Below are positions 25,738-56,444 of a DNA stretch of 64,000 nt, one piece after another. The position numbers and the translations under genes are program-made. Origin of the DNA: Candidatus Altimarinota bacterium (lineage in GTDB: Bacteria > Patescibacteriota > Gracilibacteria > BD1-5 > UBA2023); contig JAYVGV010000034.1 in assembly GCA_043771825.1 (NCBI GenBank), forward strand, positions 9,475 through 73,474, given 5' to 3'. The first letter of the stretch is position 1, and each line of letters opens with the position of its first letter. The notes under the pieces were generated by a model. The model worked only from the letters and a program-made list of their open reading frames with translations, did no database searches and was not told the DNA's origin.

Positions 25738-25764
25738 TTCTGAAGTATTTATAATTTTCTCTTT

Positions 25765-28700: not shown

Positions 28701-29580
28701 AGAAGCAAGAGTAGCAGAGCTTGATCGTGTCAAAGCAGAGTGAGTAGAACTTCAATGAAGAAGAGATGACTATGCAAAAAATCTGGAAGCAAATAAAGAA
28801 AAAATGTCTCCTGAAGCGAAGAAGCAACTCGAGAAAGATATCGCAGAACTCGATAAGAAAATCATGGCAAATAAAGCTCAGGAAAATATGATGACCAAAC
28901 TCGAGAAAGATATTAAAAAGGCTGATGATGATCTGCGTGCTACTAGGGTAAGTCCTGACGAAGTGAAGAAGCTTGCAGAGACTCCTGCTTGAAGAAAGAA
29001 GCTTACAGCATGGCTAGAGGATCAAAGAAAACTCGATTGGTCAAACTACATGAGGATACTCATAGCTGTATTAGCAGCACTCCTCCTCGCAACTCTCTTC
29101 AAGCGTTGTGCAGACGGAAGTATGCCATCTGATACAACTCCTCCACAGTCTGATGGGAAAGATCCATGAAGAGAGATAGATGCTGCTTGTGGAATTGATT
29201 CTGGAAAAGAAAGATGAGTGCTCATAGATAAAAGAAAAAGTAATGAATGAGCAGTCCTTACGGAAATTCGCCGTATAGATATCTCTCGAAGATATATGAA
29301 TACACCAAGATGGAATGATATACTTGCAGTATTTAAAGAAAATGAAAGTCTTTTAGAGAATTCAAAATTTGCTGATTCGTTTCGAGCTATATTCAAGAGA
29401 CCTAACCCTACAGATATACAACATATACAGAGATGGATTGGAATGGAATCGGTAGATAAAGAAACAGCACAGGATGGTATACTTGGTCCTAATACTGCAA
29501 AGGCACTTATAGAATTTATGAATATATGTAAGAGGAATCAAAGTGTGCCTAAGCCACCTCCTGCTATTCAGAATACATAA
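25765..29580 (+). CDS. giant coiled-coil/PG-binding envelope protein 3 (1271 aa)
   Basis: Single frame joining track ORFs 25765-26385, 28435-28671, 28804-28992 and 29296-29580, all lines checked. Gly/Ala hydrophobic helices, a long Lys/Glu coiled coil, a TM helix ILIAVLAALLLATLF and a C-terminal DGILGPNTAKALIEFM (PG_binding_1-like). Confidence 0.72.
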
Positions 29581-37023: not shown

Positions 37024-38178
37024 TTATAACTTTCATTCATCTCATCATGCTGTGAGATACTGACTAAAGTTCTCTCTCGAAATTATAGAAATCTCCCGTA
37101 TCGGTGCATTTGCTGAAAGAGTGAGCACTTTTTTCTCTGATTTCCACTTCATATCGTATCCTGTGATCTTCCCATCTTTCTCTACGATCAGATCGATCTC
37201 TTCCCCTGTATACGCTCGATAGAATGCGATATTTTCATGTGTATTATTCGTAAGGATGCTTTTGTATTTCTCCGCTATATAGAAATTTTCGAAAAGAGCT
37301 CACTTATCTGGACGGAGTTCGAGAGACTCGAAGTTATTGATCAGTGCATTTCTCACTCCTGTATCCCAGAAGTAGATTTTTCGCATTTTCTTGATACTTT
37401 TTCTCTTATTATCCGCATAGGGCGAGAGTCGAAATATGATAAACGCCTTCTCGAGTATATCGACATAGTTCTCGATAGTCTGTATGCTAATGCTAAAATC
37501 CTTGGCTATACTCGCATATGAGACCTCTTGTCCGATCTGATAGGCGAGGACCTTAAGGAGTTTCATGAGAGTATCGGATTTCTGTATACCAGAAAAGGTG
37601 AGTACATCCTTCAGTGTATAGTCACTCGCTATCCGGGCTATAGCATCACGAGGAGTTTCTCATGCTGATGGAGAGAGGGCTTCTGGGTACGATCCATAGA
37701 GGATACGCTCTTCGAGAGAGTATTTCTCGATCATCTGAGCCCCAAAGTGCAAGGAGAGCTCACTATAGAGAAATGGAAAAAGCATAAAGTCTCTATGTCT
37801 CCCCGTAAGTGGCTCGATGACACGACTCTGGAGGTCGAAGCTCGAAGATCCTGTAGCGATGATCTGGATATTCGGATAGGCATCATGGAGGATCTTCAGT
37901 GCACGGCCGATATTTTCCACGATTTGCGCTTCATCGAATATGATGAAGTCGGCGTCTCCGAGCATCATCATGATGCGAGGGAGATCACAGGAAGCGAGAA
38001 TTTCGCGTACTTGGGATTGTTCGCACTGGAAGTAGCGTCACTTCGGGTATTTCTCGAGAAATGATCGAACAAAAGTCGTCTTTCCTACTTGTCGTGGTCC
38101 GTAGAGGATGAGGATTTTCCCACTTCAAAATGCAGACTCAAATGCAGAAGTAATCGATCGGTGAATATAGGATTTCAT
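37024..38178 (-). CDS. AAA ATPase with DUF4143 domain (AAA_14 family)
   Basis: ILILYGPRQVGKTT Walker A and IIFDEAQ Walker B. The C-terminal region (YQIGQEVSYASIAKDFSISIQTIENYVDILEKAFII) is typical of DUF4143. 384 aa. Confidence 0.82.
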
Positions 38179-38267
38179 ATGAGTGTAGTAAGGTGTTTCT
38201 ATTTTACTTTTTCTTGAGAAAAACACAACTTTATTTCACTTTTTCACAAGAAAAACTAAAGTGTATC

Positions 38268-39068: not shown

Positions 39069-41489
39069 TTGCCCACTAAAAATCACATCATCACCTACGA
39101 AGTCTCTGTCGATCGAGCCAATGAAAAAGGCGTTTTTGTGGCTCGTGAGATGCTCTCAACATTGCATCATGCCGTCGAACATATACGACCTTGGTACAAG
39201 TTTTGGGTCCCGAAGACTATACCCGTTTTTCGATTCGAGATCATCGCATCACTCGGGCAGATTCGGTTCTTTCTATCGACACATGCGGAGTATGCATCAT
39301 TCCTGACGGGGCAGATCTACGCACACTATAGCGATATAGAACTCCATGAGTGCATTCCTCTCCTCCCAAGAGATACATCATACCGATGTCGAGATATCGG
39401 ACTTGCCCATCACTCTCTCGATACGATCAAGCTTTATGTGAACCTCAAAGATCGCACAGAAAAAGATTCTGTCGACCCTCTTTCTGGACTGACTAGCGCA
39501 CTCTCGAAGATACCGAAAGAAGAGACCTGATGATTCATCTTCGACTTCTCGCCCATACATGATCACATATGGCGATGAGAGGAGAAACATGGAATATGGA
39601 AAAGTCATATGATTCCTGACTTCATGAGACTCTATGTGCTTCACTTTTGGTCATGGATTGGCTGGCTATTTTTACCGATTTCTCTTTCTCTGAAGCTTGT
39701 ATCTTTCCTTGTGCCGAAAGGGGAAAGTACAGGAGAAGTCCACGCATATGAAAAAAAAGAAGGAAAAGAAAAAATAGAAACAAAACTCGAATGATATGGA
39801 TACAGTGTGAAAATGCGCGTGATAAAAAATGCTCGCGATACTATCTCTGATGATCTCATCCTCAAAGAACTCGCAGGAAGTATGCATATTTTCGCGAATC
39901 CAAACGGCAATCACTTCATCATGAAGAAATCTCACCTCATCCACGCTCTCCCTCTTCCTCGAAGTCTCCCGAAGTCTGCTATGATCCTCTCTGTCACAGA
40001 GCTCGCAGGGATCATCCACCTTCCGACTCTCTATGTGAAGACTCCCGGGATACACTGGGTGACGACACGCAAATTCGAACCCCCACATGACCTCCCAGAT
40101 ATAGAGAGTCCGAATACTCCTATCGGAATGGCGAACTATAGATGACAACTAGAAGGATTCTGAATCAAGCCCATCGATCGAGCACGTCATATCTATATCA
40201 TAGGAAAGACCGGTATGGGAAAGTCGACTCTCCTCGAAAATATGATATATAGTGATATACTCAATGGTCGGTGAGTCGCTGTGATCGACCCTCATGGTGA
40301 CCTCGTCGAGACGATACTACGAAATATCCCAAAATCTCGAACGAATGATATCGTCCTTTTTGATCCTGCAGATCAAGAGTATCCTATAGGATTTAATATG
40401 CTCGATAATCCTCACCCCGAGCTTCGTCCGATCGTAGCAGGAGGACTCGTATCGATATTTAAGAAGATGTTCGCCGAGAGCTGGTGACCACGTCTCGAAT
40501 ATATACTCCGCAACACTATACTCACACTCCTTCTTATCCCTGAGACGACACTTATATCTATACCGCTTATGCTTACGCATGAAGCCTATAGACGCAAAGT
40601 CGTATCAAAGATCGATGATCCTATCCTTATCCAGTTCTGGAACGAAGAATTTGCGAAGATGACTCCAAGCATGCAGAGTGAAGCGATAAACCCGATCCTC
40701 AATAAAGTCGGGCAATTTCTCTCTTCACCCATCCTTCGCAATATTCTTGGCCAACCAAAAAATCCATTTACCCTCAGGTGGATCATGGACAATAGTAAGA
40801 TATTCCTCGTGAATCTCTCGAAATGAAGAATCGGAGAAGATGCCAGTGCTCTCCTCGGTGCAATGATGGTGACGAAGTTCCAGATCGAAGCGATGACTCG
40901 TGCAGATATACCAGAAGCTGATCGTGTAGATTTCGGACTCTACGTGGATGAGTTCCAGAATTTCGCGACGGACTCTTTCGCGACGATACTATCGGAAGCG
41001 AGAAAATATAAACTCTCTCTTACTATGGCGAATCAGTATATTGCCCAGATGGCTGAGGCTGTGCAGTGAGCAGTATTCGGGAATGTCGGATCACTCGTAT
41101 CATTCCAGGTCGGCTACCATGACGCGCTCATACTCGCAGAGGTATGCGGAGGAGAAGATGTCATCACTCCTCAGGATCTCATGAACCTCAGAAAGTACGA
41201 TATATATACGAAGCTCCTCATCGATGGTATGCCTTCCCCTGTATTCTCAGCGACTACATATGCTCCACTCCATGAGCGTATGGAAGTATCTCCTCAGCAG
41301 ACTCGAGATGTCCTTCTGAAGGTATCTCGAGAGAAATATACCAAGAAAAAAGAATTTGTAGAAAAGAAGATATTCGAGAATATCAATAAAATCCGTGAAG
41401 AAGAAAAGAAATTCCGAGAAGAGAAAGAAGCCTATAAAGAAAAGAAGATGGAAGAAAAGAAGCAGAAGAGAGAAGGCGAAGAGAGGTAG
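39069..41489 (+). CDS. T4SS coupling-protein-like ATPase, paralog 1 (VirD4/TraD-type)
   Basis: Seven track ORFs in one frame join through TGA. HIYIIGKTGMGKSTLLENM, VIDPHGDL, FGLYVDEFQNF and EARKYKLSLTMANQY motifs. TM hairpin mid-protein. TTG start assumed. 806 aa. Confidence 0.78.
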
Positions 41490-41501
41490 GCAGCTATAAT
41501 T

Positions 41502-41978
41502 TTAATCATATCATTCATCACATCTTGAACATCACATCTTCTCTAAAACATTTTCTGTTCTTTGAGGAGTAGTTCTCAAAATCACCTGAACTATTTGTTC
41601 ACCCCTTCTACTACACACAATCTCTTCGCCTATTTGAGCTATAGTTCCTGAACATGTAGAGCAGGATGCATAGTCCATTCGTGTATCTCTTTCAAAATAA
41701 ACAGGTTTTCAGGGTGGAAATTCAGCAATTCATGGTGGTTGTTTTTCAGAAGTTACGAGACGGCTGAATGTGTTTCAATGTCATGTAGTACTACCGTAGC
41801 CCAAAAATGGCCTTACACTATGAGGTGTTCTTCACAGAAGGGTATGTTCAAAGGATCAATCTGGTTTTAGGAATGTAGTGATTGAAATAGCCTCCATGGA
41901 GGTATGTGTATTTATAGAATCCGCAGTTTGAGTAACCCCAGCTAGAAGATCTGCAGTTTGAGTATCCAGGCGTTTCAT
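41502..41978 (-). CDS. hypothetical Cys-rich (zinc-ribbon-like) protein
   Basis: 158-aa ORF seen only with TGA=Gly. ...DYASCSTCSGTIAQIGEEIVCSRRGEQIV...GCSRCDEGYD. It overlaps and replaces track ORF 41848-42072, which is in another frame. Confidence 0.35.
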
Positions 41979-42169
41979 ACGAATAAATATTATATAAGAA
42001 TTTCCTAAGATTACTTTTCAATCTAGGAAATTGAAGACAGGTGTATAATAGGCTAATCATATGTTTTGTCAAATTTATTCTTTTAGGTCTATTGCATATT
42101 ATAGTATTCTTTCCTTGCGAATGATAATTTTCTCGCTATAATCATTTTCATATTTCTAAATTCCTTCCT

Positions 42170-43132
42170 ATGCGCCGTATCCTTCTTATTATCACTCTCG
42201 TATTTGGATGTTTCCTTTCAGTTCAAGGTATATTTGCAGTAAATGATGTCAATATCCGAGATACTTCCCAAGTGACGATCAGTGGAAATGCAGAGAATGA
42301 TAAACTTGGGAGTTTCATAGGTCCAATAGTGAACTTCTTCTACTCGCCAGTAGCGAGTGGCGATGCGACGATACCCAATATTTTTCTCAATATTACCGGA
42401 GCGATCAAAAACTTCTTCATCACGATTGCTGCTATATTCCTTATCATTGGAGTACTGAAGCTTCTCTTCTCTGGAGGGGACGAAGAGGCACAAAAAAAAT
42501 GGAAAAACAACATCATATGGGTTTCTGTCTGAGTTTTTGTGATGCAAATATCCTACTCTGTATGGAGCACGCTCTATCTCAAAAGTGGAACGAATTCATT
42601 CGATATTGATGGTCGTCTCGCATGGACATTCTGGATCAATATATTCGAACCAATAGTCAATATTATGCTCCTTTTGGCTTCTTTTGGCTTCATCGCTATG
42701 GCAGTATACTCTTTCTATACGATCATCACAGGAGGGGGGGATGAAGAAAAGCTCAAAAAGTGAAAAAATATCATCATTTATGCAGCAATCGGATTCATCC
42801 TCATCCGTATACCGGAAGTCCTCATCACTGCTCTCTATGGAGAACCATCAGCTGCTTGTAAAAATAATATCTGGATCGGTACATGTGAGATCGGTGCAAA
42901 AAACCTCGGCAATGGAATAAATATTTTCGGAAAAATACTCGCATATGTCAATGGTTTCCTCGCACTCTTTGCTGTAATAATGGTCATCTATGCAGGATGG
43001 CTGATATTTATCTCTGGGGGGGATGAGGAAAAGCTCAAAAAAGCAAAAAAAACTATGCTTTTTATCGCTCTTGGTATCATCCTTCTTGTAGGAAGTCAGG
43101 CAATATTTCGATTCTTCTTTCTTCAAGGATAA
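42170..43132 (+). CDS. T4SS pilin-like protein with three tandem pilin modules
   Basis: Signal-like N-terminus, then three repeats of hydrophobic helix, SGGDEE(A/K)(Q/L)KK(W/G/A)K, hydrophobic helix. 320 aa. Confidence 0.75.
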
Positions 43133-43182
43133 AAAAAGTCCAAGTTTTTGCATTTTTCTGGCGTTTTTAGTATAATAGTTGC

Positions 43183-45612
43183 ATGAGTATGTCGGAAGTC
43201 ATTTTTATTATTATTACTGTCACAAGTATTGTCAGTATATTTTATATCGTGACTCGCCGCAAGATTGCATTAAAGCGTTCGCTCGATATGACATTTCTTC
43301 GGGTGATCATCGGCCGCAAAGATAGCGATAAAGATGAGAAAAGCGATACTGTAAAAGATTTTCGAGAGCAGATATCGATCATGGAGCAGCTCCTTGCAAG
43401 CATGAAGTCACTCTACTCGAGTACTGCTATGGGCTGGCTCTTCGGGCAAGAGTATCTCTCACTTGAGTACGTGGCGCACCATCAGGAGATTTATTTTTAC
43501 CTCGTAGTACCCAAGAGAGCCAAACTCCTCGTAGAAAAACAAGTTCTCGGATTTTATCCAGACTCTTTCATCGAAGAAACCGATGAGATCAATATATTTG
43601 AATGACGAAATATCGTACGTGGTGAGATCATGAAGCTGAAGAAGTCATACCAATTCCCTATACGTACCTACCAAAAGCTCGAGACGGATCCGATGAATGG
43701 TATCCTCTCAGCACTCTGAAAACTCACAGAAGAAGAGTCATGAGTCGTACAGATCCTTCTGCGTCCTGTCGATGATGATTGGCAAGAGAGAATCCGCAAG
43801 CGAATACGAAAAAGTGAAAAAAAGTGAGGATACCATATTTCTTGGAATCCTCTCGAATGGATCGGTGGACTCCTCGATATTTTGACCCATGATCCCAGTG
43901 ATTCAAAGCAAGCTCCAGAGAGCGATAATACAGACGATGAGCCGCTCGACGAAGAAGGACTCATGAAAGAAAAAGTGAAAAAAACAGGATATGCCGTCGT
44001 CGTACGCATACTCACAACTGGTAACAATGAAGAGCATGTCTATGCTGAGCTCCAAAATATTATTTCTTCTTTTTCTCAGTTCACTTCTCCGACCTATAAT
44101 CGCTTCAAGCCTGTAAAGCGGAAATCTCTCTCGCTTCTGATCAACCACTATATATTTCGCCAATTTGCTTGGTGGCAGCATGCAGGTATCATGAACAGCG
44201 AAGAGCTCGCGACACTCTTTCATTTTCCGCATAATAAATACAACAAACAACCCGAAATCCGCTGGCAGAGATTCAAGCTCATCAAGGCACCAACCAATAT
44301 CCCAAAAGAAGGACTCTATATCGGAGATAATCTATTTCGTGGAGAGAGAAAGCCGATTTTCATAAAAAATGAGGATCGATTTCGTCACTTCTACGTCATA
44401 GGACAGACAGGTACAGGAAAGTCCTCAATCCTCTCGACGATGGCTCGTCAAGATGTGCGAAATGGTCGATGACTCGCTATGCTCGATCCCCATGGAGACC
44501 TCGCGAAGGAACTCGTAGGCTATATCCCGCGTGAACGTGCGGATGATCTCGTCTATTTTGATCCGGGAGATCTCGCACGTCCTATGGGACTCAATATGCT
44601 CGAAGCCTCCAATGAAGATGAAAAACAGATGGTCGTCGCTGACTCGACGAATATCATGATCAAGCTTTTTGGAAGTGAGATATTTGGTCCCCGTATCCAA
44701 GACTACTTCCGCAATGGATGCCTGACTCTTATGGACTATCCTCAATGAGGAGCGATCACAGATCTGATCCGACTTTTTACTGATGAGAACTTTCAGAGAG
44801 AACGTCGTACGACTCTCAAAAATGCGGTCGTCCGAGCTTGGTGGGATTATACGTATGCGAAGATGTGAGATCGAGAAAAGGGGGAGATCATCCCGTATTT
44901 TGCTGCAAAATTCGGACAATTTATCACGAACACGATGATGCGTAATATCGTCGGTCAGACCAAGTCTGCATTCGATATCGGGGAGATCATGAACCATGAA
45001 AAGCTCCTCCTCGTCTCGCTTTCAAAGGGGATCATCGGTGATCTGAATTCGACACTTCTTGGTTTGATCTTAGTTTCTAAAATCCAAATAGCGGCACTCA
45101 GAAGACAAAGTATGGCAAAAGAGGATCGCAAAGACTTTTTTCTCTATATCGACGAATTCCAAAACTATGTCACAGACTCCATCGAATCGATCCTCTCGGA
45201 AGCTCGGAAGTATCGACTCGGCCTTATCATAGCCCACCAGTACCTCGGACAACTCGAAAAATCTGACGCCCTCACCAAATCGAATCTCAATCTCAAATGA
45301 GCAATATTCGGTAATGTCGGAACGGTCATGAGCTATAAGCTCGGTGCTGAAGATGCAGAGTTCATGGCGAAGCAATTTGCCCCCGCATATTCGGATCAAG
45401 ACTTCGTCAATATGGATAAGTTCAAAGCCGCCCTGAAGCTATCCGTCGATAGCCAGCCGACACCAGGATTCTCTCTTGCACCACCCAATCCATTCGCTGA
45501 AATGCCCGATGAAAAAATCGGTGCCGCCCTCAAAGAACTCTCTCGACTCAAATACGGAAGAGAACGTGAATTCGTCGAAAAAGAAATCATATATCGTATC
45601 GGTGCTGTATAA
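43183..45612 (+). CDS. T4SS coupling-protein-like ATPase, paralog 2
   Basis: N-terminal TM helix. HFYVIGQTGTGKSSIL, MLDPHGDL, FFLYIDEFQNY and EARKYRLGLIIAHQY motifs. Five track ORFs in one frame. 809 aa. Confidence 0.78.
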
Positions 45613-45616
45613 TCCT

Positions 45617-46582
45617 ATGAAAAAACCTCTTCTTTGCATCTCACTCATAATCTATAGTCTCCTTTTTTCTCTAGAAGAAGGCTATAGTGCATGAAAAAAA
45701 ACTATATGTGATCCCAAGCTCATGTCATGCTATGAAGAGCAGGTAAAGAATTGTACAGGACCGACTTCACCATGGGGAAACTGAGCAGATCTGTGAGCTA
45801 TCACTATCAAATACGAGGAATTTAAATCTGAAAAAATCGATGACTTTATCGCTAAGATCCCCCAGACACAGACTGGTCCAGATGAAAAAGAGAGTATGCA
45901 AAAAAAGGTCGATGCTCTAAAAAGTCGACAGTTTCTCTGATTTCGTGCTACTGAAGCTGCTCGTCTTCTCTATAGAAGTAATATGAATCAGATATTCTCT
46001 TGTGCCATCATAGCGAGTCGATGGAGCAAGCTCGAAAAGCTCGATACAATAGTCAAAAAAAATGGCAAAGCAAGCGATATCCTCCAAAAGCTCGATAAAG
46101 AAAAGAAAAGATATGAATCCCTCATGCGAAATAAAAACTGTTTCCAAAATAATAGCGATAAAGCTGATGATAAAGTCGTCGATCGTCTTTCTTTCAGTGC
46201 GGCCGGAGAATACTGTAGATACACCTACTATCTCGACTATATAAGCGCAAACATCACGAGTGATTTCTCGGCTGCAGTGGAAATAGATAGAAAGATCGGT
46301 GGAAATACTGGAACTACAGAAATCGGTACTACTATCGCTGCAAGCACAAGTATGGGTCAATGGATGACCACACTCGAATCAGAAAGATCTCGGGCCAATA
46401 GTACTATTCCAAAAGCAGTAGTAGCATTCCAGGAGATGGATCGCACCTATATCACCCATCTTCTTCTCATCATCATCTATGATGATTATCTGAAACTCAG
46501 AGACCGCCTTAATACCTACATGAGTATCGTCTCTCAAACCTTCGAAAAAGCCTATAATGCGCAAGATGCAAATAAACGATAA
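45617..46582 (+). CDS. hypothetical secreted protein or lipoprotein (321 aa)
   Basis: Starts 4 nt after the ATPase stop. Signal-like MKKPLLCISLIIYSLLFS. The frame joins track ORF 45983-46582 through TGA. Confidence 0.55.
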
Positions 46583-47010: not shown

Positions 47011-47095
47011 TGGTGCCCAGGAAGAGACTTGAACTCTTACACCGTAAGGCAACGGCTTCTAAGACCGTCGTGTCTACCAATTCCACCACCTGGGC
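47011..47095 (-). tRNA. tRNA-Leu (anticodon UAG), class II
   Basis: Acceptor gcccagg/cctgggc, anticodon loop cuUAGaa, long variable arm, T-loop ttcaagt, encoded CCA. Confidence 0.82.
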
Positions 47096-47116
47096 GAAAA
47101 TATTATAGTCTTTTTA

Positions 47117-47201
47117 TGGTGGGCCGGGAGGGATTCGAACCCACGAAGGCGAAGCCAAAGGATTTACAGTCCTCCCCATTTGACCACTCTGGTACCGACC
47201 C
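47117..47201 (-). tRNA. tRNA-Tyr (anticodon GUA), class II
   Basis: Acceptor gggtcgg/ccggccc, anticodon loop cuGUAaa, long variable arm, T-loop ttcgaat, encoded CCA. Confidence 0.82.
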
Positions 47202-47285
47202 ATAAAAAAGAATTGAGAATTCTAGATTTTTTCGACATTGTTTTTTATCCAAAATCCAATATTCCAAATTCTAAACTCCTGAAAG

Positions 47286-47361
47286 TGGAGCCACCAATCA
47301 GACTTGAACTGATGACCGCCGGTTTACAAAACCGATGCTCTACCAACTGAGCTATGGTGGC
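47286..47361 (-). tRNA. tRNA-Thr (anticodon UGU)
   Basis: Acceptor gccacca/tggtggc, D-arm gctc/gagc, anticodon loop uuUGUaa, T-arm atcag-ttcaagt-ctgat, encoded CCA. Confidence 0.82.
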
Positions 47362-50120: not shown

Positions 50121-51536
50121 TTACAAACCTTCCATTTCCATTCAGATAAGTATATTCATCTCCGCGGCATATTCGAGCGGGAGCTCCTTCATGAGCGGTG
50201 AGACGAATCCACGGACGATAAGCGTCTTCGCTTCATCTTCTGGGATACCGTGTGACTGGAGGTAGAAGAGGACATCTTCATTGATCTTTCCGACGCTTGC
50301 CTCATGTGCGACGAGTGCATCATCAGTCGCGACTCGTATATCAGGGATAGTATCGGAGCGAGACTCTCCATCGAGGATAAGCCCATCACAGTCGATCTTT
50401 GCGACAGCACCAGTAGCAGATTTCTTGATATCGAGAAGTCCCCGATAGGTCGAGATTCATCCTCTTTTTGAGAGACTCTTCGAGATGACTTCACTCGATG
50501 TATTTTTGCCTATGTGGATGATTTTTGCTCCTGTATCAGTATTTTGTCCAGCATTCGCAAAAGCAATACCAAAGTGAAGTGCCTTCGAGTTATCTCACTT
50601 CAGTATCGAGCAAGGATAGAGCATCGTGACTCATGAGCCGAGATTCCCTCCCACCCATTCGATCGATCCACCCTCTTCGACGATGGCACGCTTAGTGTTG
50701 AGATTATAGGTATCGACTGACCAATTCTCCACAGATGAATATCGCATTTTTGCATGTTTTCCGACATATATCTCGACACATCCGGCATGGAGACTCGAAG
50801 TTCCATATTTTGGAGCACTGCATCCCTCGATATAGTGAGCTTCAGCATCATCTTCTATGATGATAAGTGTATGTTCGAATTGCCCTCCTGCCTTCACATT
50901 CATGCGGAAATATGCCTGTAGTGGATCTGTGATCTTCACTCACTTCGGAATATAGAGAAATGTCCCTCCACTCCATACTGCACCATGAAGAGCTGCAAAC
51001 ATATGATCACTCATCGGAACAACTTTCATGAAGTGCCTTCGGACGATATCTTCATATTTATGGATCGCGACGGACATATCTTCGAATATGACTCCCTGAT
51101 CTTGGAGCTCCTGACGAAGACTATGATACACTACTTCACTATCGTACTGAGCACCTACTCCTGCGAGCATCTTTCTCTCTGCTTCAGGGATACCAAGTCG
51201 ATCGAAAGTCTTTTTGATCGCATCAGGAACATCGTCCCATGACTTAGAGTCTCCTCATCCTTCAGCCTTAGCAAAGTAATATATAGACTCCAGATCAAGT
51301 GCTTCAAGTGAGGGTCACCATGTCGGCTTGGTAAAGCTTCGATATTTTTCGAGAGATTTCAGACGATGATCGAGCATCCAAGTCGGTTCTTCATTCGAGA
51401 GAGAGATCTGCCTGACGACCGATTCATCGAGTCAGACCTTCGCCATCTGTGAATATACGATACTATCACTCCCATCGAGTGTCGCTCGGGAGATATCTCC
51501 GAAAGCTTGTATGTCGTCTTGGTTTTGTGGAGTCAT
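50121..51536 (-). CDS. sufB: Fe-S cluster assembly protein SufB
   Basis: Track ORFs 50631-50939 and 50940-51170 plus flanks lie in one frame. AHYIEGCSAPKY..., VLFYLQSHGIPEDEAKTLIVRGF. 471 aa. Confidence 0.92.
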
Positions 51537-51562
51537 AGTTTTGAATGAGTATTACAAGTTTT

Positions 51563-51599
51563 CTGTCATTGCGAGGAACGAAGTGACGTGGCAATCCAG
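51563..51599. repeat. short intergenic inverted-repeat element, copy 2
   Basis: ctgtcattgcgag-gaacgaagtgacgtg-gcaatccag in the 128-nt sufC-sufB spacer. Confidence 0.6.
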
Positions 51600-51664
51600 A
51601 GTTTATAGAAGTTCTTTTATTCTTTCAGTGAGATCAGTCCACTTACGAAGAAGAGAGAACTGGA

Positions 51665-52393
51665 CTAAAATCCCTTCTGTCTGATGACGTCTATGAGCTC
51701 TTGTCAGCCATGGCGATCTATTTGTCAAGACTTCATTATCAGCACTCTATCAACATTTATAGAATCAAGAAGGTGGAAATTATGAGAAATAATAATGACG
51801 AGCTTCGCCATACTTCGCCACTTTTCTATCTGTTTGGATAGTATATCAATAGCACCAATATCCAATCCTGAATCAATCTCATCGAGAAATATACACGAAG
51901 GATCAAGGAGTGCTATCTGGAGCATCTCTATACGTCGCTTCTCTCCTCAGGAGAATCCGACATAGAGATCTCTATCCAAGAATTTGGTATCGAGTCCATA
52001 TTCAGGAAGCATCTTTTCTACCATCCTCCGAAATATGAAAGGTGTCGGAGCTTTTGCTAGAGGATTCCTCAGAGCAAAGTGATGTGTATAGATGGTACGG
52101 AGGTATTCGAGGAGTCGTATGCCTGGGATCTCAGGAACATTCTGAAATGAGAGGAACATCCCTCTATTTGAGAGAATATCTGGTGAGAGATCTGATATAC
52201 TTTCCCCGCTGAGCATGAGTGATCCTACTACCTCATAGCGCGGATGATGAAAGAGGGCAAAAGCGAGAGAGGATTTCCCACTTCCATTCTCTCAGAGAAT
52301 GGCATAGATCGATCCTTTCTCAAAGGTATACGAGAGATCTCTAATAATCTCTTTTTCTCATACAGATACGGATATGTGGTCAAGTGATAGCAT
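51665..52393 (-). CDS. sufC: Fe-S cluster assembly ATPase SufC
   Basis: Walker A IL[G]ENGSGKSSL (TGA at 52292-52294), ABC signature FS[G]GEKRR and Walker B IFLDEIDSGLD. 242 aa. Confidence 0.92.
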
Positions 52394-52454
52394 GTGGACA
52401 TCATAGGCATCATATCTAAAAATGCAAGAAAAATTCTTTAGAAGGAGGACAAAT

Positions 52455-52652
52455 ATGATTGATTTGAACGGATATTTCACTATACTTTCATTGCTCCTTG
52501 CTTCCAGGAGGAGCAAGGGGTATTTATTACCTAATCCTTTTTCTTATGAAAAAGTTTGCCATAGAACTTCCATACTGGAAGCATCGTATGATACGGATAG
52601 AAGTATCTGATATCTATATGCGATTCGTGAAGCGGAGACGCTAGATCGATAA
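52455..52652 (+). CDS. possible small protein (65 aa) or small RNA
   Basis: ATG preceded by gaaggagga 5 nt upstream, one in-frame TGA, and a terminator immediately after the stop. No homology recognised. Confidence 0.3.
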
Positions 52653-52654
52653 AG

Positions 52655-52682
52655 AAAAATCCCCATTGTAGTGGGGATTTTT
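52655..52682. terminator. intrinsic terminator
   Basis: aaatcccc-attgtagt-ggggattt followed by tt. Confidence 0.55.
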
Positions 52683-52795
52683 CAAAGGGTATCTATCCTA
52701 TTTGCCATAGAAGATAATTTTAGTATATCCTATCTCTTTCGGAAATCAAATTTTTTTGTAAAAAGTATTCACTATCGTATGGTTCTCAAAACACC

Positions 52796-52824
52796 AAAAA
52801 TCCCCCCCGAAAATCGGGAGGGAT
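52796..52824 (-). terminator. intrinsic terminator of the S-layer gene
   Basis: The minus strand reads atccctcccg-atttt-cgggggggat followed by ttttt. Confidence 0.6.
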
Positions 52825-52850
52825 CGATGGAACAATTATCGTAGAAACGA

Positions 52851-55709
52851 TTATTGAGCTGATACATTAGAGTATTCCTCTGTTGTAGCACCATTGTAAG
52901 TAAGAGCGAGGACTTCACCGAGAAGATCTGTAGGATCGACGAAGTTTGAGTCTACGAGAATCTCATATGAGTATGAAGATCCATTCTTACTAATTGTAGG
53001 AGGGGTCACGAGCATGAGGTTCGCCGCGACACCTGGAACACTACCAGTACCAGTACTATCAGCTACTACAGGACAAGTAGATGCACTTGATCCTTCAGAG
53101 CGAAGACAGTAGACTGCTGTATAGGTAGAGTTGTTCACTGCTACTGGCTTGACACGGACCTTAAGAGCATTAAGGGTGATATCAGACTCAGAAGAGACAT
53201 TAGTCACCTTTACGAGGAAGACCTTTGCTGACTTCTTAGAGATAGAGACAGTAGGAGGGATCACACCGACGACGTAGTCAGTCGTAGATACTGAAGCAAG
53301 AGTTCCTGGAGCGAACGTAGCCGAGCTACCAGAAGCCTTATCGACAGTATTGAGAGTGACAGCAAGATCGATACGCTTACCGTGCTCTCCACTACCGAAT
53401 CCAGTAGTAGTAGCGACCACCTTGAAGTTACGAGTAGTATCCTTCATGACTTCAGCTGACATACTATCGAAGACGATAGAACCAGAGTTTACAGTCACAG
53501 TAGCAGAAACTTGAGAGTTAGTAGCGACATCGACGAGCTTGACACTGTTTGAAGAGATGATAGTCGTCCAGTCAGTCACACCACTCATAGAAGCAGCATT
53601 TGTGACGGTGAGCTTGCGAGCTGTGACATTCTCCGCCTCAGCACCTACACCGAATCTTCCGATTTCGATATCAGCACTAGAGTAGACTGTACGAGCAGAC
53701 ATAGGAGCGACAGTAGCGTTCTTGAGAACGACTGTACCATTCTTCACTGTCACCTTATCACCAGCTTGAGACTTAGTAACAGGTGAGACATTACCATTAG
53801 AAACGTTCTTGACTTGAGCGATAGAGAATGTTCCGACGTAATCCATAGGAACGTTTACTGCATTTGAACGAACATTTGCAACGACACGGATAGTCACAGG
53901 AACACCTGGCTCGACACGGAATCGGTCAGAAGTAGCAGACCAAGTACGATTAGCAGTACCGAGAGTAGTAGCGACGATCTCATAGTCTACACCATTGATA
54001 TATACCGTGACTTTATTGTCTGAGAAGTCAGCAAATCCACTTGCAGAACCTGTAGTAAGAGCGAATGTATAGTTTGATACATCGAATGAAGCATCAGACG
54101 TTACAGTAGCTTTGTAGAGATCTACTGAAGTACCAGGAGCGACAGTACGAGTACCTGTAGAGCTCTTAGTAATAGTAAGATCAACTGCGGAAAGAAAAAG
54201 TATAGCTGTAGGTGAAGGGTTTGCACCATTTACAGTCATAGCATATCCTGTAGTCTTCTCAGTACCAGAGACATCTGTACTTGCATCGACACGGAATGTC
54301 GTTTGAGAAGAAGCTCCTACGTAGACGATATCACTACGAAGTTCGATAGAAGCCTGCTCACCAGAGAGACGAGAGATATTAAGACCTGTTACCATGACTT
54401 TATCAGTCGTGACTGATACAGATCCGACCTTAGTACCGTTGAAGTACGCAGATACATTTGAGAGTACCTTTGTATAGTCTTCACCAGTTCCCTTTGTGAG
54501 GGTGAATCCAGCGATAGTACCTTCCTTTCCAGGAGTGAGCTTCACTGTAACAAAGAGTTGGTTTGACTTACCAGAAGTTACAGATGAAGTAGTGATACTA
54601 TCAAGTGTAAGAGATGCAACTGAGTAAGAAGTAGTGTTGAGAAGTCCGAGAGTCACTGGAGTTCCAGAGACAGTCGCACCATTAAGAGCATTTACTGTAG
54701 TAACTGCAAATTGGTGTTGGCTGTTTGAAGCACCATTGAGACTTACGAGGACATCGAGCATTACAGAAGTACCTGCCTTAAGGACAAGTGCGTTTGTAAG
54801 CTTGAGAGTAGCAGCCTGAGATGAAGTACTGAGAGTACGAGAGTCTGATACATTTGTACCATTCTGAGCAAGTACTACTGCAGAGATATCAGCGACTGGT
54901 CCAAGACCTGAACGAGTAACGACGACTGAAGAGACAGTCACATCAGCAGCACCAGCAGTGAGCTTCACTGTACCTATCTTCACTGAAGAAGCGTTCATAG
55001 GAACGTACTGAGCCATAGCCTGTCCTTCGAGAGCGACAGTGAGAGCACCAGCAACTACTACACCAGTACCAGTAGTACCAGTTCCAGTAGGAGGGACGAC
55101 TGGAGGAGGAGTAGGATCTACATCAAGACCAGCACATACGACAGCGACCTTGAATGCTTCACCACGAGTGGATGATGCATTTGGACGGAAGTACATATTA
55201 GAAGAGATACATCCGATCTCATTTGCACGGTTTACATATCCGCGAAGGTCACCAAGACCGTCGAGATCCATGTATCCAGCATCGACATCAGAACCAGTTT
55301 CACCAAGTGATCCGAGGATCATCTTGACCATTTCAGCACGAGTGATATTAGCAGAAGGACGGAAAGTCGCAGATGCTGTAGATACGACACCTGCATCAGC
55401 AAGAGCCTCTACATAACCACAAAGATCTCCGAGACGAGCGCCGACATCACTATAGACATCACCAGAACAAGCCGTAGCCTCGATACCACCGAGATTAGCG
55501 ACCACCTTTGCGATTTCCGCGCGGGTAATATTGTTGCCGAGACGGTATCCAGCTTCAGTAGTCTGAGCTGAGATAACGCTGTTATCAGCAAGAACTTCAG
55601 CATAGGTAAGAAACTCAGAAGCAGCAGAAACAAGTGAAGCACTTGTAGAAACTGCGACGAGAGTCGCTACACCCATAGCAGAAGTAAGCTTCGTAAGGAA
55701 GTTACTCAT
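52851..55709 (-). CDS. S-layer-type surface protein with three N-terminal SLH-like repeats
   Basis: Signal peptide MSNFLTKLTSAMGVATLVAVSTSASLVSAA. Three repeats end ...NITRAEIAKV / FRPSANITRAEMVKM / FRPNASSTRGEAFKV. A PTPPPVVPPTGTGTTGTG linker is followed by about 700 aa of Thr/Ser/Val-rich beta-type sequence. No in-frame TGA. Start set at Met 28 of the track ORF. Confidence 0.82.
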   Translation of the reverse strand: MSNFLTKLTSAMGVATLVAVSTSASLVSAASEFLTYAEVLADNSVISAQTTEAGYRLGNNITRAEIAKVVANLGGIEATACSGDVYSDVGARLGDLCGYVEALADAGVVSTASATFRPSANITRAEMVKMILGSLGETGSDVDAGYMDLDGLGDLRGYVNRANEIGCISSNMYFRPNASSTRGEAFKVAVVCAGLDVDPTPPPVVPPTGTGTTGTGVVVAGALTVALEGQAMAQYVPMNASSVKIGTVKLTAGAADVTVSSVVVTRSGLGPVADISAVVLAQNGTNVSDSRTLSTSSQAATLKLTNALVLKAGTSVMLDVLVSLNGASNSQHQFAVTTVNALNGATVSGTPVTLGLLNTTSYSVASLTLDSITTSSVTSGKSNQLFVTVKLTPGKEGTIAGFTLTKGTGEDYTKVLSNVSAYFNGTKVGSVSVTTDKVMVTGLNISRLSGEQASIELRSDIVYVGASSQTTFRVDASTDVSGTEKTTGYAMTVNGANPSPTAILFLSAVDLTITKSSTGTRTVAPGTSVDLYKATVTSDASFDVSNYTFALTTGSASGFADFSDNKVTVYINGVDYEIVATTLGTANRTWSATSDRFRVEPGVPVTIRVVANVRSNAVNVPMDYVGTFSIAQVKNVSNGNVSPVTKSQAGDKVTVKNGTVVLKNATVAPMSARTVYSSADIEIGRFGVGAEAENVTARKLTVTNAASMSGVTDWTTIISSNSVKLVDVATNSQVSATVTVNSGSIVFDSMSAEVMKDTTRNFKVVATTTGFGSGEHGKRIDLAVTLNTVDKASGSSATFAPGTLASVSTTDYVVGVIPPTVSISKKSAKVFLVKVTNVSSESDITLNALKVRVKPVAVNNSTYTAVYCLRSEGSSASTCPVVADSTGTGSVPGVAANLMLVTPPTISKNGSSYSYEILVDSNFVDPTDLLGEVLALTYNGATTEEYSNVSAQ

Positions 55710-55960
55710 AAATATATATGGGTAAAAAAGTAAAAAATGCGGATATCTCCGCGGGCGGGGACCATTTTGACGATCATGGTCAGTGATCATCGGGTGATAA
55801 CTTCTGGTCAGGAAGTTACCGCCTTTCTCACTTGCGTGAGAGAGGTTAAAGCTTTAACCTCAAGTTATTTGCATAACGAGAGGAAAGAGGGGGTGATAGA
55901 TCTAAAAATTAGATATTTAAAAAATGAATATTTCTAGAAAAATGTTTGGAATCATCGCAA
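55710..55960 (-). promoter_or_regulatory. long structured 5' leader of the S-layer gene
   Basis: Several strong hairpins on the minus strand: gaggttaa-agct-ttaacctc, tctcac-gcaa-gtgaga and gtaacttc...gaagttat. The promoter was not pinned down. Confidence 0.35.
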
Positions 55961-56444
55961 TGATTTCTTTGATTTGTAGAACTTTATATACGAATATAAA
56001 AATCACACTCTCTCTCCTCTCCTCATACAGTGATCTTAATAAGGTGACCAAAGCAATAGGAAAATGATGTTAAAGAACATCCGCAAAGACGATCGTCCTG
56101 CAAAATACACGAGTAATAATATGAAAACAAGGACTTAAAGTCAAATGAAAGTGCACCCTCTTCACGATATTTTCACAACAAAAAATACTCGTAAGAGGAT
56201 AAATACAATATGCAAGTATAAAGTTTTCTATTGTAGAAAAGGGAAATGAGGAAAATCGAGAAAAATAAATTCCTTTTTCACAAAAAACTCCTACAATGAG
56301 TCTGTCATTCGGAAAAAGCAGTATATATAGACCATCCCAGAGGAAAATACACACGAATCCCAACTATACACCCAAAAAATCATCGTCTCCTCATCGGGCT
56401 TCTCTCCGAATGCTGGTTTCTGTTCCTTCAATAACTTTAGATAT

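What the first reader, a model, noticed from the sequence alone, without database searches (positions are those of the whole stretch)
39069..46582. Minimal T4SS-like module of two paralogous coupling-protein-like ATPases, a tripled pilin and a secreted protein, with no recognisable VirB4/B6/B8-B11
Both ATPases (806 and 809 aa) share the same layout. An approximately 400-aa N-terminal region of unknown function with TM helices is followed by Walker A (IIGKTGMGKS / VIGQTGTGKS) and (V/M)(I/L)DPHGDL. Walker B is LY(V/I)DEFQN(F/Y), followed by EARKY(K/R)L...(A/M)(N/H)QY, as in TraD/VirD4 (TraG-D_C) proteins. They flank the pilin gene, and a 321-aa signal-peptide protein follows with a 4-nt gap. No relaxase, VirB4, VirB6 or lytic transglycosylase is visible in the module. 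With the short ComEC at 58760 and the giant PG-binding proteins at 17804-29580, this could be a CPR-specific DNA or protein transfer or uptake apparatus whose mechanism is uncharacterised.
Basis: partly seen in the sequence, partly recalled or inferred. Interest (0 to 1): 0.75.

Follow-up and report, generated by a model that had tools for sequence, protein, structure and literature searches.

The report
Coupling-type ATPases beside a tripled pilin
A Gracilibacteria (candidate phyla radiation) chromosome carries two ancient paralogous conjugation-type "coupling" ATPases, a three-in-one VirB2-like pilin and a secreted helical protein; this is one dispersed part of the already described Patescibacteria type IV secretion machinery, not a self-contained new machine, but it links these "orphan" ATPases to a pilin for the first time.

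Summary
The genes are ATPase1 (39069-41489, 806 aa), a pilin with three PF18895 repeats (42170-43132), ATPase2 (43183-45612, 809 aa) and a 321-aa secreted protein four nucleotides downstream (45617-46582).

Both ATPases are full-length homologs of the coupling-protein-slot ATPase of a Bacillus Tcp-type conjugation operon. The homology includes the N-terminal DUF8128 domain. They are not the canonical Patescibacteria VirB4. They represent two deep paralog clades found across all CPR classes, probably part of the roughly two-per-genome "T4CP homologues" already counted in the literature.

The conserved core in this Gracilibacteria clade is pilin→ATPase2, usually followed by the secreted protein. 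ATPase1 is adjacent only in close relatives. Outside the clade the paralogs have different neighbours.

A canonical VirB4 lies on the same contig as both paralogs in a related genome, and PrgI/TrsD-like genes lie 6 kb from the triad in another. "Minimal, VirB4-less T4SS" is therefore true of the window only, not shown for the genome.

Verdict: a new variant of a known kind, of moderate interest.

The parts
39069..41489 (+). ATPase1: A1-type DUF8128 plus T4CP-like (TraG/VirD4/TcpA-slot) HerA/FtsK-superfamily ATPase, 806 aa. Walker A is at aa 376-383 and Walker B (YVDEF) at about aa 623. It has an internal hydrophobic segment at about aa 181-216 and a Lys/Glu-rich C-terminal tail.
41490..42169 (.). 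680-nt spacer between ATPase1 and the pilin. It has no coding potential on the + strand. The antisense 158-aa ORF is probably spurious. A spacer of similar length in L090 is not conserved in sequence. It contains a sigma-70-like site at 42115-42142, just upstream of the pilin start.
42170..43132 (+). Tripled VirB2-like pilin: a signal peptide plus three PF18895 hairpins (6 TM helices), each with a GG(G)DEEK-KK cytoplasmic loop, and a conserved Cys pair in linker 2. The fusion is ancient and collinear in relatives.
43183..45612 (+). ATPase2: A2-type DUF8128 plus T4CP-like ATPase, 809 aa, with an N-terminal TM helix (aa 1-26). It is the most conserved gene of the module (66% identity to the L002 lineage).
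45617..46582 (+). 321-aa secreted protein: signal peptide, four invariant Cys, predicted all-alpha bundle of very long helices. It has no family or fold match. It is found only directly downstream of ATPase2 orthologs in this clade.

Best explanation
This is the Gracilibacteria form of one dispersed part of the Patescibacteria T4SS-derived envelope machinery. Shown: pilin, ATPase2 and the secreted protein lie on the same strand with 50-nt and 4-nt gaps, so they are probably one operon. The operon encodes a covalently tripled VirB2-like membrane pilin, a membrane-anchored hexameric-type ATPase of the monoderm coupling-protein lineage (DUF8128 N-domain plus a TraG/VirD4-like nucleotide-binding domain with an all-alpha insert), and a fast-evolving, disulfide-containing secreted helical protein. 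ATPase1 is the second member of an ancient, pan-CPR pair of such ATPases, and both keep intact catalytic motifs. Inferred mechanism: ATPase2, possibly with ATPase1, sits at the cytoplasmic membrane. It uses ATP either to move a substrate (DNA or protein) through, or to help assemble, a VirB2-type pilus or conduit built from the tripled pilin. The secreted helical protein would act as an extracellular pilus-associated or target-contact component (VirB5/CagL-like in role, not in demonstrable homology). The remaining T4SS parts (VirB4, VirB3/PrgI, TrsD) are encoded elsewhere in the genome, as in related Gracilibacteria. No relaxase is present, so classical conjugation is unlikely. Import of DNA or nucleotides (as in the archaeal Ced/Ted system) or effector export to the host cell are the two most plausible directions; import is slightly favoured for an auxotrophic epibiont, but nothing here demonstrates it.
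For: Code 25 and intact genes. T4CP lineage: Pfam and NCBIfam; TrwB as best PDB sequence hit; plasmid relatives annotated as T4SS DNA-binding/DUF87 proteins; hhalign probability 100, E 1.8e-46 over 641 columns, including DUF8128, to the Bacillus ATPase next to Replic_Relax in a TcpC/TcpE/AAA_10 operon. Not VirB4: no PF19044, PF12846 or PF03135; Bacillus VirB4 and the Gracilibacteria VirB4 fragment do not hit. Catalytic residues (G412, K413, D657, E658, R675, K676, Q686) are invariant in 50 orthologs of both paralogs. Two deep clades, with one member of each in two-copy loci from different CPR classes. Family size and range: 4750 50%-identity clusters at E<1e-30 and at least 598 loci in all CPR classes. 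Pilin→A2 is conserved in the window, L001, L002/3, L007, L090 and L091; the secreted protein lies downstream in six lineages. Divergence gradient between the window and L002: A2 66%, pilin 42%, secreted 38%, as expected for cytoplasmic versus exposed parts. VirB4 lies on the same contig as A1 and A2; PrgI and a TraC-like gene lie near the triad. [quoted passage not shown]
Against: No functional data exist. In canonical systems T4CPs are not needed for pilus biogenesis, so operonic coupling to a pilin is unusual and may reflect co-regulation only. Outside this Gracilibacteria clade the same ATPases sit next to unrelated small proteins and housekeeping genes, with no pilin. The pilin link is therefore lineage-specific, and the ancestral role of the pair may not involve a pilus. 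According to PMC12102498, the t4cp homologue of Southlakia was not essential for epibiotic growth while the other T4SS genes were. A covalently fused three-domain pilin may not polymerise like VirB2. The secreted protein has no significant fold match. The VirB4-like overall fold leaves open that these ATPases do VirB4-type rather than coupling-type work.
Confidence: 0.55

Rival explanations
1. Stand-alone minimal machine. In this clade the T4CP-derived paralogs have replaced VirB4. ATPase2, with or without ATPase1, together with the tripled pilin and the secreted protein forms a VirB4-independent pilus or translocon.
For: The pilin is operonic with ATPase2, not with VirB4. The full-length AF2 model matches VirB4 (TrwK) best, with alignments of about 770-930 columns (E 7e-13), ahead of the coupling proteins, so the protein has a VirB4-like two-domain build. 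VirB6 is reported absent, and TrsD/VirB3 unlinked from VirB4, in Gracilibacteria (PMC12102498). No VirB4 lies within 10 kb of 83 of the 85 related loci.
Against: A canonical VirB4 is on the same 120-kb contig as pilin-A2 and A1. PrgI and a TrsD-like gene lie 6 kb from the triad in L002. TM-scores to VirB4 are low (0.30), and the DUF8128 profile shows no sequence link to VirB4-N or TrsD.
Confidence: 0.15
2. Housekeeping DNA translocases. The two pan-CPR paralogs are exapted FtsK/HerA-like motors (chromosome segregation, repair or DNA processing), and their position next to the pilin in this clade is a coincidence of gene order.
For: They are near-universal in CPR with a strict two-paralog pattern. 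Neighbours in other classes are housekeeping genes such as DnaX, RNR, CysS and AspS, plus a sigma-like HTH protein. Pfam DUF87/HerA hits. The literature notes possible exaptation (PMC12102498).
Against: Pilin→A2 adjacency, with 10-118 nt gaps, persists down to 66% A2 identity while the flanks change. The secreted protein is found only directly after A2. The ATPase carries an N-terminal membrane anchor. The closest characterised-context relative sits in a conjugation operon next to a relaxase.
Confidence: 0.15
3. Remnant or cargo of an integrated conjugative element (ICE) rather than a chromosomal system.
For: The closest non-CPR relatives are plasmid-borne. The pilin matches a Mycoplasma ICE pilin-like family (NF045849).
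Against: GC content is uniform across the region. Flanks are housekeeping genes (SufBD, EF-G, L31, tRNAs) and are syntenic in relatives. No integrase, relaxase or repeats were seen. The family is vertically conserved in all CPR classes.
Confidence: 0.03
4. Anti-phage defence system containing a HerA/DUF87-type ATPase.
For: PADLOC mad8 matches the nucleotide-binding domain (E 1e-13 to 1e-16), and there are weak HerA hits.
Against: No other MADS or HerA-partner genes are present. The match covers only the generic ATPase domain. The module is universal in CPR, chromosomally conserved and pilin-associated.
Confidence: 0.02

Closest known systems
Coupling-protein-slot ATPase of Bacillus Tcp/pLS20-like conjugative plasmids (e.g. 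NZ_CP154917.1, 885-aa 'DUF87 domain-containing protein' upstream of Replic_Relax, TcpC, TcpE and an AAA_10 VirB4)
   Same: Full-length homology covering both the DUF8128 N-domain and the TraG/VirD4-like ATPase domain (hhalign probability 100, E 1.8e-46, 641 columns). Both are distinct from the VirB4 of the same operon.
   Different: The Bacillus gene sits beside a relaxase in a complete conjugation operon. The window's genes have no relaxase or MPF genes nearby, are chromosomal, are duplicated into two ancient paralogs, and one of them is operonic with a pilin. Identity is only about 21-26%.
Patescibacteria T4SS (Southlakia epibionticum SEML1_0006-0019; survey of Quinonero-Coronel et al. 2025)
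   Same: Monoderm-type, chromosomal and relaxase-free, with VirB2-like PF18895 pilins. T4CP homologues are unlinked from virB4 and number about two per genome (5,713 in 2,918 genomes).
   Different: In that system the pilins are arrays of separate genes next to VirB4-TrsD-VirB3. Here three pilin domains are fused into one polypeptide that is operonic with a T4CP-type ATPase, and VirB4 is tens of kb away (L089/L091). The ATPase-pilin link, the A1/A2 clades and the DUF8128 homology are not described in the papers read.
Archaeal Ced/Ted DNA-import systems (CedA1 VirB2-like pilin, CedB VirB4-like, CedD VirD4-like)
   Same: T4SS-derived, chromosomal and relaxase-free, with genes dispersed in the genome and a VirD4-like membrane ATPase working alongside a VirB2-like pilin (PMC11823120). 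There is a weak NCBIfam CedD hit.
   Different: The CedD match is 33 bits against a cutoff of 600, so this is not an ortholog. No CedA or CedB homologs are present in the window. The transport direction and the substrate here are unknown.
TrwB/VirD4 (R388) and TrwK/VirB4 (R388) structures
   Same: The ATPase domain superposes on TrwB, Cagbeta and DotL (TMt about 0.5; E 1e-9 to 6e-9). The full-length model aligns best with TrwK/VirB4 (E 7e-13, about 770-930 columns).
   Different: TrwB has a 2-TM N-terminus and no large N-domain. VirB4 family signatures (PF03135, PF12846, PF19044, DEAW) are absent. TM-scores to VirB4 are only 0.30.
Mycoplasma ICE minimal T4SS (Mbov_0395 pilin-like protein, Mbov_0397 VirB4, TraG/VirD4-like CDS5)
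   Same: A wall-less or monoderm minimal T4SS with a pilin-like protein. NF045849 matches above its cutoff, three times in the window pilin.
   Different: ICE-borne conjugation with VirB4 adjacent. The VirB4_plasma hit to ATPase1 is negligible (20 bits against 590).

Membership tests
Type IV coupling protein (VirD4/TraG/TcpA-slot T4CP) | HerA/FtsK-superfamily P-loop ATPase with Walker A, Walker B and conserved Arg/Gln motifs | tested here: met
   Motifs are read directly in the sequences and are invariant in 50 orthologs. DUF87 scores above cutoff in both paralogs.
Type IV coupling protein (VirD4/TraG/TcpA-slot T4CP) | Sequence membership in T4CP families (PF10412 TrwB_AAD_bind, PF12696 TraG-D_C, PF02534 T4SS-DNA_transf) | tested here: met
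   ATPase1 passes all three, marginally: 24.6 against 20.5, 23.7 against 22, and 20.7 against 20.1. ATPase2 passes PF10412 only (21.2 against 20.5), and PF12696 is below cutoff. TrwB scores E 4e-8 over aa 371-662. NCBIfam TraD/VirD4 equivalogs score far below their cutoffs, so these are family-level members, not orthologs of any named T4CP.
Type IV coupling protein (VirD4/TraG/TcpA-slot T4CP) | Homology to an ATPase that occupies the coupling-protein position (next to the relaxase, distinct from VirB4) in a bona fide conjugation operon | tested here: met
   hhalign probability 100, E 1.8e-46. Operon annotation and Pfam: Replic_Relax, TcpC, TcpE, AAA_10.
Type IV coupling protein (VirD4/TraG/TcpA-slot T4CP) | All-alpha domain inserted in the nucleotide-binding domain | tested here: inconclusive
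   The AF2 model has an all-helical block at aa 478-604, between Walker A and Walker B, and the PF10412 alignment spans it. No domain-level superposition was possible.
Type IV coupling protein (VirD4/TraG/TcpA-slot T4CP) | N-terminal transmembrane anchor | tested here: inconclusive
   ATPase2 has one TM helix at aa 1-26. ATPase1 has none at the N-terminus and only an internal hydrophobic segment at aa 181-216. The test is hydropathy only.
Type IV coupling protein (VirD4/TraG/TcpA-slot T4CP) | Genetic linkage to a relaxase or oriT, and substrate recruitment | tested here: not met
   No relaxase was found in the window or in the fetched CPR loci. Substrate recruitment is not testable here. The proteins therefore belong to the T4CP lineage, but a coupling function is unproven.
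VirB4 | VirB4 family signatures (PF03135 CagE_TrbE_VirB, PF12846 AAA_10, PF19044 P-loop_TraG; DEAW-type Walker B) | tested here: not met
   No PF03135 or PF19044 hit. AAA_10 gives E 0.013 over 50 residues only. Walker B is (V/I)DEFQN, against VVDEAWN in the Gracilibacteria VirB4 fragment.
VirB4 | Detectable similarity to bona fide VirB4 of monoderm or CPR systems | tested here: not met
   The Bacillus AAA_10 VirB4 and the L089 VirB4 fragment give no hit to ATPase1/2, whereas the Bacillus T4CP gives 9e-40 and 4e-27.
VirB4 | Two-domain build of about 800 aa (N-terminal domain plus C-terminal ATPase) resembling solved VirB4 | tested here: inconclusive
   The top Foldseek hits are TrwK/VirB4 (E 7e-13, about 770-930 columns) but with TM 0.30. 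The DUF8128 profile shows no sequence link to VirB4-N or TrsD.
VirB2/TrbC-type T4SS pilin (PF18895) | Family HMM above its curated cutoff | tested here: met
   PF18895 at 62 bits against 26.6, in three stretches. NF045849 at 50.3 against 40, in three stretches. PF04956 TrbC is weak (E 0.013).
VirB2/TrbC-type T4SS pilin (PF18895) | Signal peptide followed by a two-helix hydrophobic hairpin with a short charged loop | tested here: met
   Hydropathy shows a signal peptide plus three hairpins, each with a GG(G)DEEK..KK loop.
VirB2/TrbC-type T4SS pilin (PF18895) | Small single-domain subunit that polymerises into a pilus | tested here: not met
   Three domains are covalently fused in one 320-aa polypeptide, conserved collinearly in six lineages. 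Polymerisation is not testable here.
VirB5-type pilus-tip / adhesin protein (for the secreted protein) | Sequence or fold similarity to VirB5/TraC/CagL | tested here: not met
   No Pfam, NCBIfam or PDB sequence hit. The best Foldseek E-value is 0.6; CagL ranks 6th at E 1.0. Only the general features fit: secreted, all-alpha, about 300 aa.
Patescibacteria T4SS cluster (VirB4-TrsD-VirB3-VirB6 plus pilin array) | Pilin genes clustered with VirB4, TrsD and VirB3 | tested here: not met
   None of these is in the window. In relatives VirB4 is about 35 kb from the pilin, and PrgI and a TraC-like gene are 6 kb away in L002 only.
Ced/Ted DNA-import system | CedD/CedB/CedA orthologs | tested here: not met
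   NF053655 CedD scores 33 bits against a cutoff of 600. No CedA or CedB analogs were detected. This is a functional analogy only.

The most novel reading that the evidence does not exclude
In this Gracilibacteria clade, a coupling-protein-derived ATPase (ATPase2, perhaps as a hetero-oligomer with ATPase1) has taken over the VirB4 job. Together with a covalently tripled VirB2 domain protein that serves as the membrane conduit or pilus, and a private secreted helical protein, it forms a VirB4-independent, relaxase-free minimal translocon used to take DNA or nutrients from, or inject effectors into, the host cell. More broadly, the two DUF8128 ATPases would be the motor of a so far unrecognised pan-CPR envelope transport system, whose membrane partner differs from class to class.
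Probability: 0.15. Interest if true: 0.8.

Novelty: new variant of a known kind. Interest (0 to 1): 0.5.

Why it matters
Patescibacteria depend on other cells, and their T4SS-like machinery is essential for epibiotic growth in the one genetically tractable species. Yet the roughly two "orphan" coupling-protein homologues present in nearly every CPR genome have no assigned role.

This locus gives the first concrete genomic link between one of those ATPases and a VirB2-like pilin plus a dedicated secreted protein. It also shows that the pair is an ancient duplication and that its "unknown" N-domain (DUF8128) comes from monoderm conjugative-plasmid coupling proteins.

That turns a vague annotation into testable hypotheses:
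- Do ATPase2, the tripled pilin and the secreted protein interact?
- Is VirB4 needed?
- Is the transport direction import or export?

A covalently tripled T4SS pilin is also an unusual structural variant worth examining.

Tried and rejected
- Table-11 reading was rejected because the genes are intact only with TGA = Gly.
- VirB4 identity was rejected by family HMMs and by direct comparison with two bona fide VirB4s. Only a fold-level resemblance remains.
- The secreted protein gave no family, PDB-sequence or significant Foldseek match.
- The pilin against PDB sequences gave nothing.
- Rfam on the whole window found only 4 tRNAs and nothing in the 680-nt gap. The gap has no DNA or protein homolog even in L090, where the flanks are 71% identical, so it is a spacer and its antisense ORF is spurious.
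- Promoter and terminator scans did not exceed the shuffles.
- Defence-system identity gave only a generic mad8/HerA similarity on the ATPase domain.
- My own pilin HMM did not find pilins near the ATPases outside Gracilibacteria, except at 4-5 kb on the opposite strand in L023 and L027. The candidate 4-TM proteins upstream in the Saccharibacteria-labelled loci do not look like PF18895 by eye, but were not scanned.
- I could not extract Gracilibacteria rows from the published Table S3, because the stored file is truncated. The equation of the DUF8128 ATPases with that paper's paired 't4cp2' hits is therefore an inference from spacing patterns.

Full report
**1. The observation**

Under the standard bacterial code the region looks like a litter of short ORFs. 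All in-frame 'stops' inside the proposed genes are TGA, and the genes end at TAA or TAG. Window-wide, treating only TAA and TAG as stops raises the number of ORFs of 200 aa or more from 19 to 98.

At TGA positions that fall in conserved columns, standard-code homologs carry glycine; at four positions this is 77 of 77, and tryptophan essentially never appears. The window therefore uses code 25, as in Gracilibacteria and Absconditabacteria. This agrees with the names attached to the closest database proteins.

- ATPase1: 39069-41489, 806 aa
- pilin: 42170-43132, 320 aa
- ATPase2: 43183-45612, 809 aa
- secreted protein: 45617-46582, 321 aa, four nucleotides after ATPase2

The quoted Walker A, DPHGDL, Walker B and EARKY...QY motifs are all present. 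The two ATPases are full-length paralogs, 33% identical over 743 aa with E 1e-113. The pilin contains three PF18895 (T4SS_pilin) units and passes the NCBIfam Mbov_0395 pilin-like model.

Hydropathy shows:
- a signal peptide plus three two-helix hairpins in the pilin
- one N-terminal TM helix in ATPase2
- only an internal hydrophobic segment (aa 181-216) in ATPase1

**2. What the ATPases are**

By sequence they belong to the coupling-protein branch of the HerA/FtsK superfamily.
- ATPase1 passes Pfam TrwB_AAD_bind, TraG-D_C, T4SS-DNA_transf and DUF87, all only just above cutoff. ATPase2 passes DUF87 and TrwB_AAD_bind.
- TrwB is the best solved relative by sequence.
- The N-terminal ~370 residues are Pfam DUF8128 (PF26449). 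This model is not in the local Pfam copy.

The decisive comparison came from plasmids. tblastn found 326 plasmid records with relatives, among them an 885-aa 'DUF87 domain-containing protein' on small Bacillus plasmids. A profile of the window family aligns to that protein with probability 100, E 1.8e-46, over 641 columns, and the alignment includes the DUF8128 region.

That Bacillus gene lies directly upstream of a Replic_Relax relaxase. It shares an operon with TcpC, TcpE and a separate AAA_10 VirB4. It therefore occupies the coupling-protein (TcpA) slot of a Tcp-type Gram-positive conjugation system.

The reverse test points the same way:
- The Bacillus coupling-slot protein hits ATPase1 (9e-40) and ATPase2 (4e-27).
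- The Bacillus VirB4, TcpC and TcpE hit nothing in the window or in 85 related CPR loci.
- A canonical Gracilibacteria VirB4 fragment (PF19044, Walker B 'VVDEAWN') also fails to hit either paralog.

At the fold level there is a twist. The AF2 model of ATPase2 (pLDDT 79) matches full-length TrwK/VirB4 best (E 7e-13, about 770-930 aligned columns). TrwB, Cagbeta and DotL follow, matching only the ~370-480-column ATPase domain. TM-scores to VirB4 are low (0.30). A DUF8128-only profile finds no sequence link to VirB4-N, to TrsD or to anything else. I read this as a VirB4-like two-domain build in a coupling-protein lineage. That is interesting, but it is not evidence of VirB4 membership.

**3. Distribution and history**

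The family is very large:
- 4,750 clusters (50% identity) at E<1e-30, with full-length matches
- at least 598 loci in a one-genome-per-species collection, covering Gracilibacteria, Peregrinibacteria, Microgenomates, Parcubacteria groups, Saccharibacteria, Berkelbacteria and others

Distances among 194 members split them into two deep groups, typified by ATPase1 and ATPase2. In loci from other CPR classes that hold two copies (L031, L035, L049, L086), one copy belongs to each group. The duplication therefore predates the CPR class divergence.

This fits the published count of 5,713 T4CP homologues in 2,918 Patescibacteria genomes, mostly far from virB4 and of unknown role (PMC12102498). The published table shows paired 't4cp2' hits with the same spacing patterns I see. 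Equating the two is my inference, not a demonstrated fact.

**4. What is conserved around them**

Within Gracilibacteria relatives, gene order is as follows (percentages are ATPase2 identity to the window):

| Locus | ATPase2 identity | Arrangement |
|---|---|---|
| window | – | ATPase1, 680-nt spacer, pilin, ATPase2, secreted |
| L090 | 82% | ATPase1, ~700-nt spacer, pilin, ATPase2, secreted |
| L001 | 80% | pilin, ATPase2, secreted |
| L007 | 76% | pilin, ATPase2, secreted |
| L091 | 76% | pilin, ATPase2 (no secreted protein within 10 kb) |
| L002/L003 | 66% | pilin, ATPase2, secreted |
| L008 | 61% | ATPase2, secreted (only 2 kb of upstream sequence on the contig) |

The constant core is tripled pilin→ATPase2. 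It is absent at 56% identity and below, and in other CPR classes.

ATPase1 is adjacent only in the window and in L090. In both, the spacer is similar in length but not conserved in sequence, although the flanking ATPase1 genes are 71% identical at the DNA level. Elsewhere ATPase1 keeps its upstream SufBD neighbour but has other downstream genes, or sits in unrelated contexts.

The tripled pilin is an old fusion. Each repeat is 52-56% identical to its positional counterpart in L002, against about 30-39% to its sister repeats. The extracellular linker 2 keeps a Cys pair.

The secreted protein has only 40 database relatives, all in this clade. It has four invariant cysteines. It is predicted as an all-alpha bundle that includes an ~80-residue helix (pTM 0.74) and has no significant fold match.

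Between the window and L002, identity falls from 66% (ATPase2) to 42% (pilin) to 38% (secreted protein). This is the pattern expected if the latter two are exposed on the cell surface.

In other CPR classes the A2-type gene is instead preceded by small acidic proteins with conserved C-termini. It is followed by a ~200-aa 'ANYASKSKLV' protein and a sigma-70 region-4-like protein, and then, in L035 and L049, by the A1-type gene.

**5. Is it a minimal, VirB4-less T4SS?**

Within the 64-kb window, yes: no VirB4, VirB3, VirB6, VirB8, TrsD or relaxase was found.

At genome level, probably not:
- One 120-kb Gracilibacteria contig (GCA_031539225.1) carries pilin→ATPase2, a canonical VirB4 about 35 kb away, and ATPase1 a further ~10 kb on.
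- In L002, PrgI (VirB3-like) and a TraC/TrsD-like gene lie 6 kb upstream of the pilin.
- The published survey describes TrsD and VirB3 homologues as unlinked from VirB4 in class Gracilibacteria, which implies all three occur there, and finds VirB6 undetectable.

The suggested tie to comEC is not seen in any relative. One giant ORF (25765-29580) has a homolog about 6 kb from the triad in L002, which is weak evidence. The locus is not an obvious mobile element: GC is even, the flanks are housekeeping genes and syntenic, and no integrase or relaxase is present.

**6. Most likely mechanism**

Shown: there is an apparent operon of a membrane pilin with three VirB2 domains, a membrane-anchored coupling-type ATPase with intact catalytic residues, and a secreted helical protein. 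A second, anciently diverged paralog is also present, and in related genomes the rest of the T4SS parts lie elsewhere.

Inferred: ATPase2, perhaps with ATPase1, forms a hexameric motor at the membrane. It either feeds a substrate into, or helps assemble, a VirB2-type conduit made from the tripled pilin. The secreted protein acts outside the cell on the pilus or on the host surface.

The absence of a relaxase argues against classical conjugation. Two precedents frame the options:
- The archaeal Ced/Ted system shows that a VirD4-like ATPase working with a VirB2-like pilin can import DNA.
- The Saccharibacteria work suggests protein export or another essential role.

I put 0.55 on this overall reading. 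The gene identities are much more secure than the mechanism.

The rivals are a true VirB4-independent machine (0.15), an exapted housekeeping DNA translocase whose pilin adjacency is incidental (0.15), an ICE remnant (0.03) and a defence system (0.02).

**7. Novelty and score**

Patescibacteria T4SSs, their VirB2-like pilins and their abundant unlinked T4CP homologues are already published (2023-2025). I did not find the following described in the papers read:
- the operonic link between a T4CP-type ATPase and a pilin
- the covalent tripling of the pilin
- the dedicated secreted partner
- the two-clade structure of the ATPase family
- the homology of DUF8128 to the N-domain of Bacillus Tcp-type coupling-slot ATPases

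This is a new variant of a known kind. It is useful because it makes the role of the orphan ATPases testable. Interest: 0.5.

Noticed in passing
window 41490-42169: 680-nt stretch between ATPase1 and the pilin with no + strand ORF, no Rfam match and no homolog. L090 has a spacer of similar length (~700 nt) at the same place, but its sequence is not conserved although the flanking genes are ~71% identical at DNA level. An antisense ORF (158 aa here, 177 aa in L090) is probably spurious.
   Followed up: partly
window 17696-29580: Cluster of very large ORFs (1437, 237, 946 and 1271 aa) with almost no family hits: PG_binding_1 in the first and a weak trypsin-like hit in the second. The 1271-aa protein has a homolog in L002 at 19771-21333, about 6 kb downstream of the pilin-ATPase2-secreted triad.
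   Followed up: partly
L089 1-719 (GCA_031539225.1, JAVKLJ010000003.1): C-terminal part of a canonical Patescibacteria-type VirB4 (PF19044, 'VVDEAWN', 'KRARKYG'), followed by MgtC and SSB genes. It lies on the same 120-kb contig as an ATPase1 ortholog (~8 kb away) and the pilin-ATPase2 pair (~35 kb away). A 47%-identical VirB4 also lies ~7 kb from the A2-type gene in L084.
   Followed up: partly
L035 7260-16551 and L049 7759-15417: In other CPR classes the two ATPase paralogs bracket a conserved pair: a ~175-190-aa protein with the motif 'Y(L/S)(V/I)PANYASKSKLV.GD.LKLTI', and a 346-aa protein with a sigma-70 region-4-like HTH ('LSRERIRQIE'). Upstream of the A2-type gene are small acidic proteins with conserved C-termini (for example 'WLKxIPGVNKFFLEQEAKIKTDKI'). 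Their functions are unknown.
   Followed up: partly
L059 7176-7523, L064 7082-7531, L065 7032-7427, L071 6989-7375, L072 7114-7503: Saccharibacteria-labelled loci have a conserved small 4-TM membrane protein two genes upstream of the A2-type ATPase, which could be its membrane partner. By eye it does not look like PF18895; it was not scanned.
   Followed up: no
window 58760-60292: A short ComEC (510 aa) with only the Competence and DUF4131 domains and no metallo-beta-lactamase domain. It is not near the module in any related locus examined.
   Followed up: partly
window 50121-57959 and L091 1-6582: The block RNase Y / SLH-domain surface protein (~960-980 aa) / SufC / SufBD is conserved next to the pilin-ATPase2 region in L091 and lies 4-12 kb downstream of the module in the window, so larger-scale synteny is kept despite rearrangements. 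In L091 the pair is also followed by rpmH-yidC, genes that typically lie near the replication origin.
   Followed up: no
window ~37237-38200 (- strand): Fragments that look like one AAA+/DUF4143-type ATPase gene, split by in-frame TGA codons under table 11. With code 25, wrong-frame ORFs in this region become long and can mislead simple ORF callers.
   Followed up: no
ATPase1 aa 360-713, ATPase2 aa 401-731: The PADLOC model mad8 (methylation-associated defence system component) matches the ATPase domain at E 1e-13 to 1e-16, so mad8 seems to belong to the same TraG/VirD4-like ATPase lineage.
   Followed up: no
L087 7977-9164 (Sulfitobacter mediterraneus plasmid NZ_CP081110.1): An orphan 395-aa 'T4SS DNA-binding domain' protein among transposases is 39% identical (E 1e-80) to the ATPase domain of ATPase1. 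This is much closer than any characterised T4CP, and it lacks the DUF8128 domain.
   Followed up: partly
window 47011-47361 (- strand): A tRNA-Leu(TAG), tRNA-Tyr(GTA) and tRNA-Thr(TGT) cluster and the rpmE gene lie immediately downstream of the module, which places it in ordinary chromosomal context.
   Followed up: no
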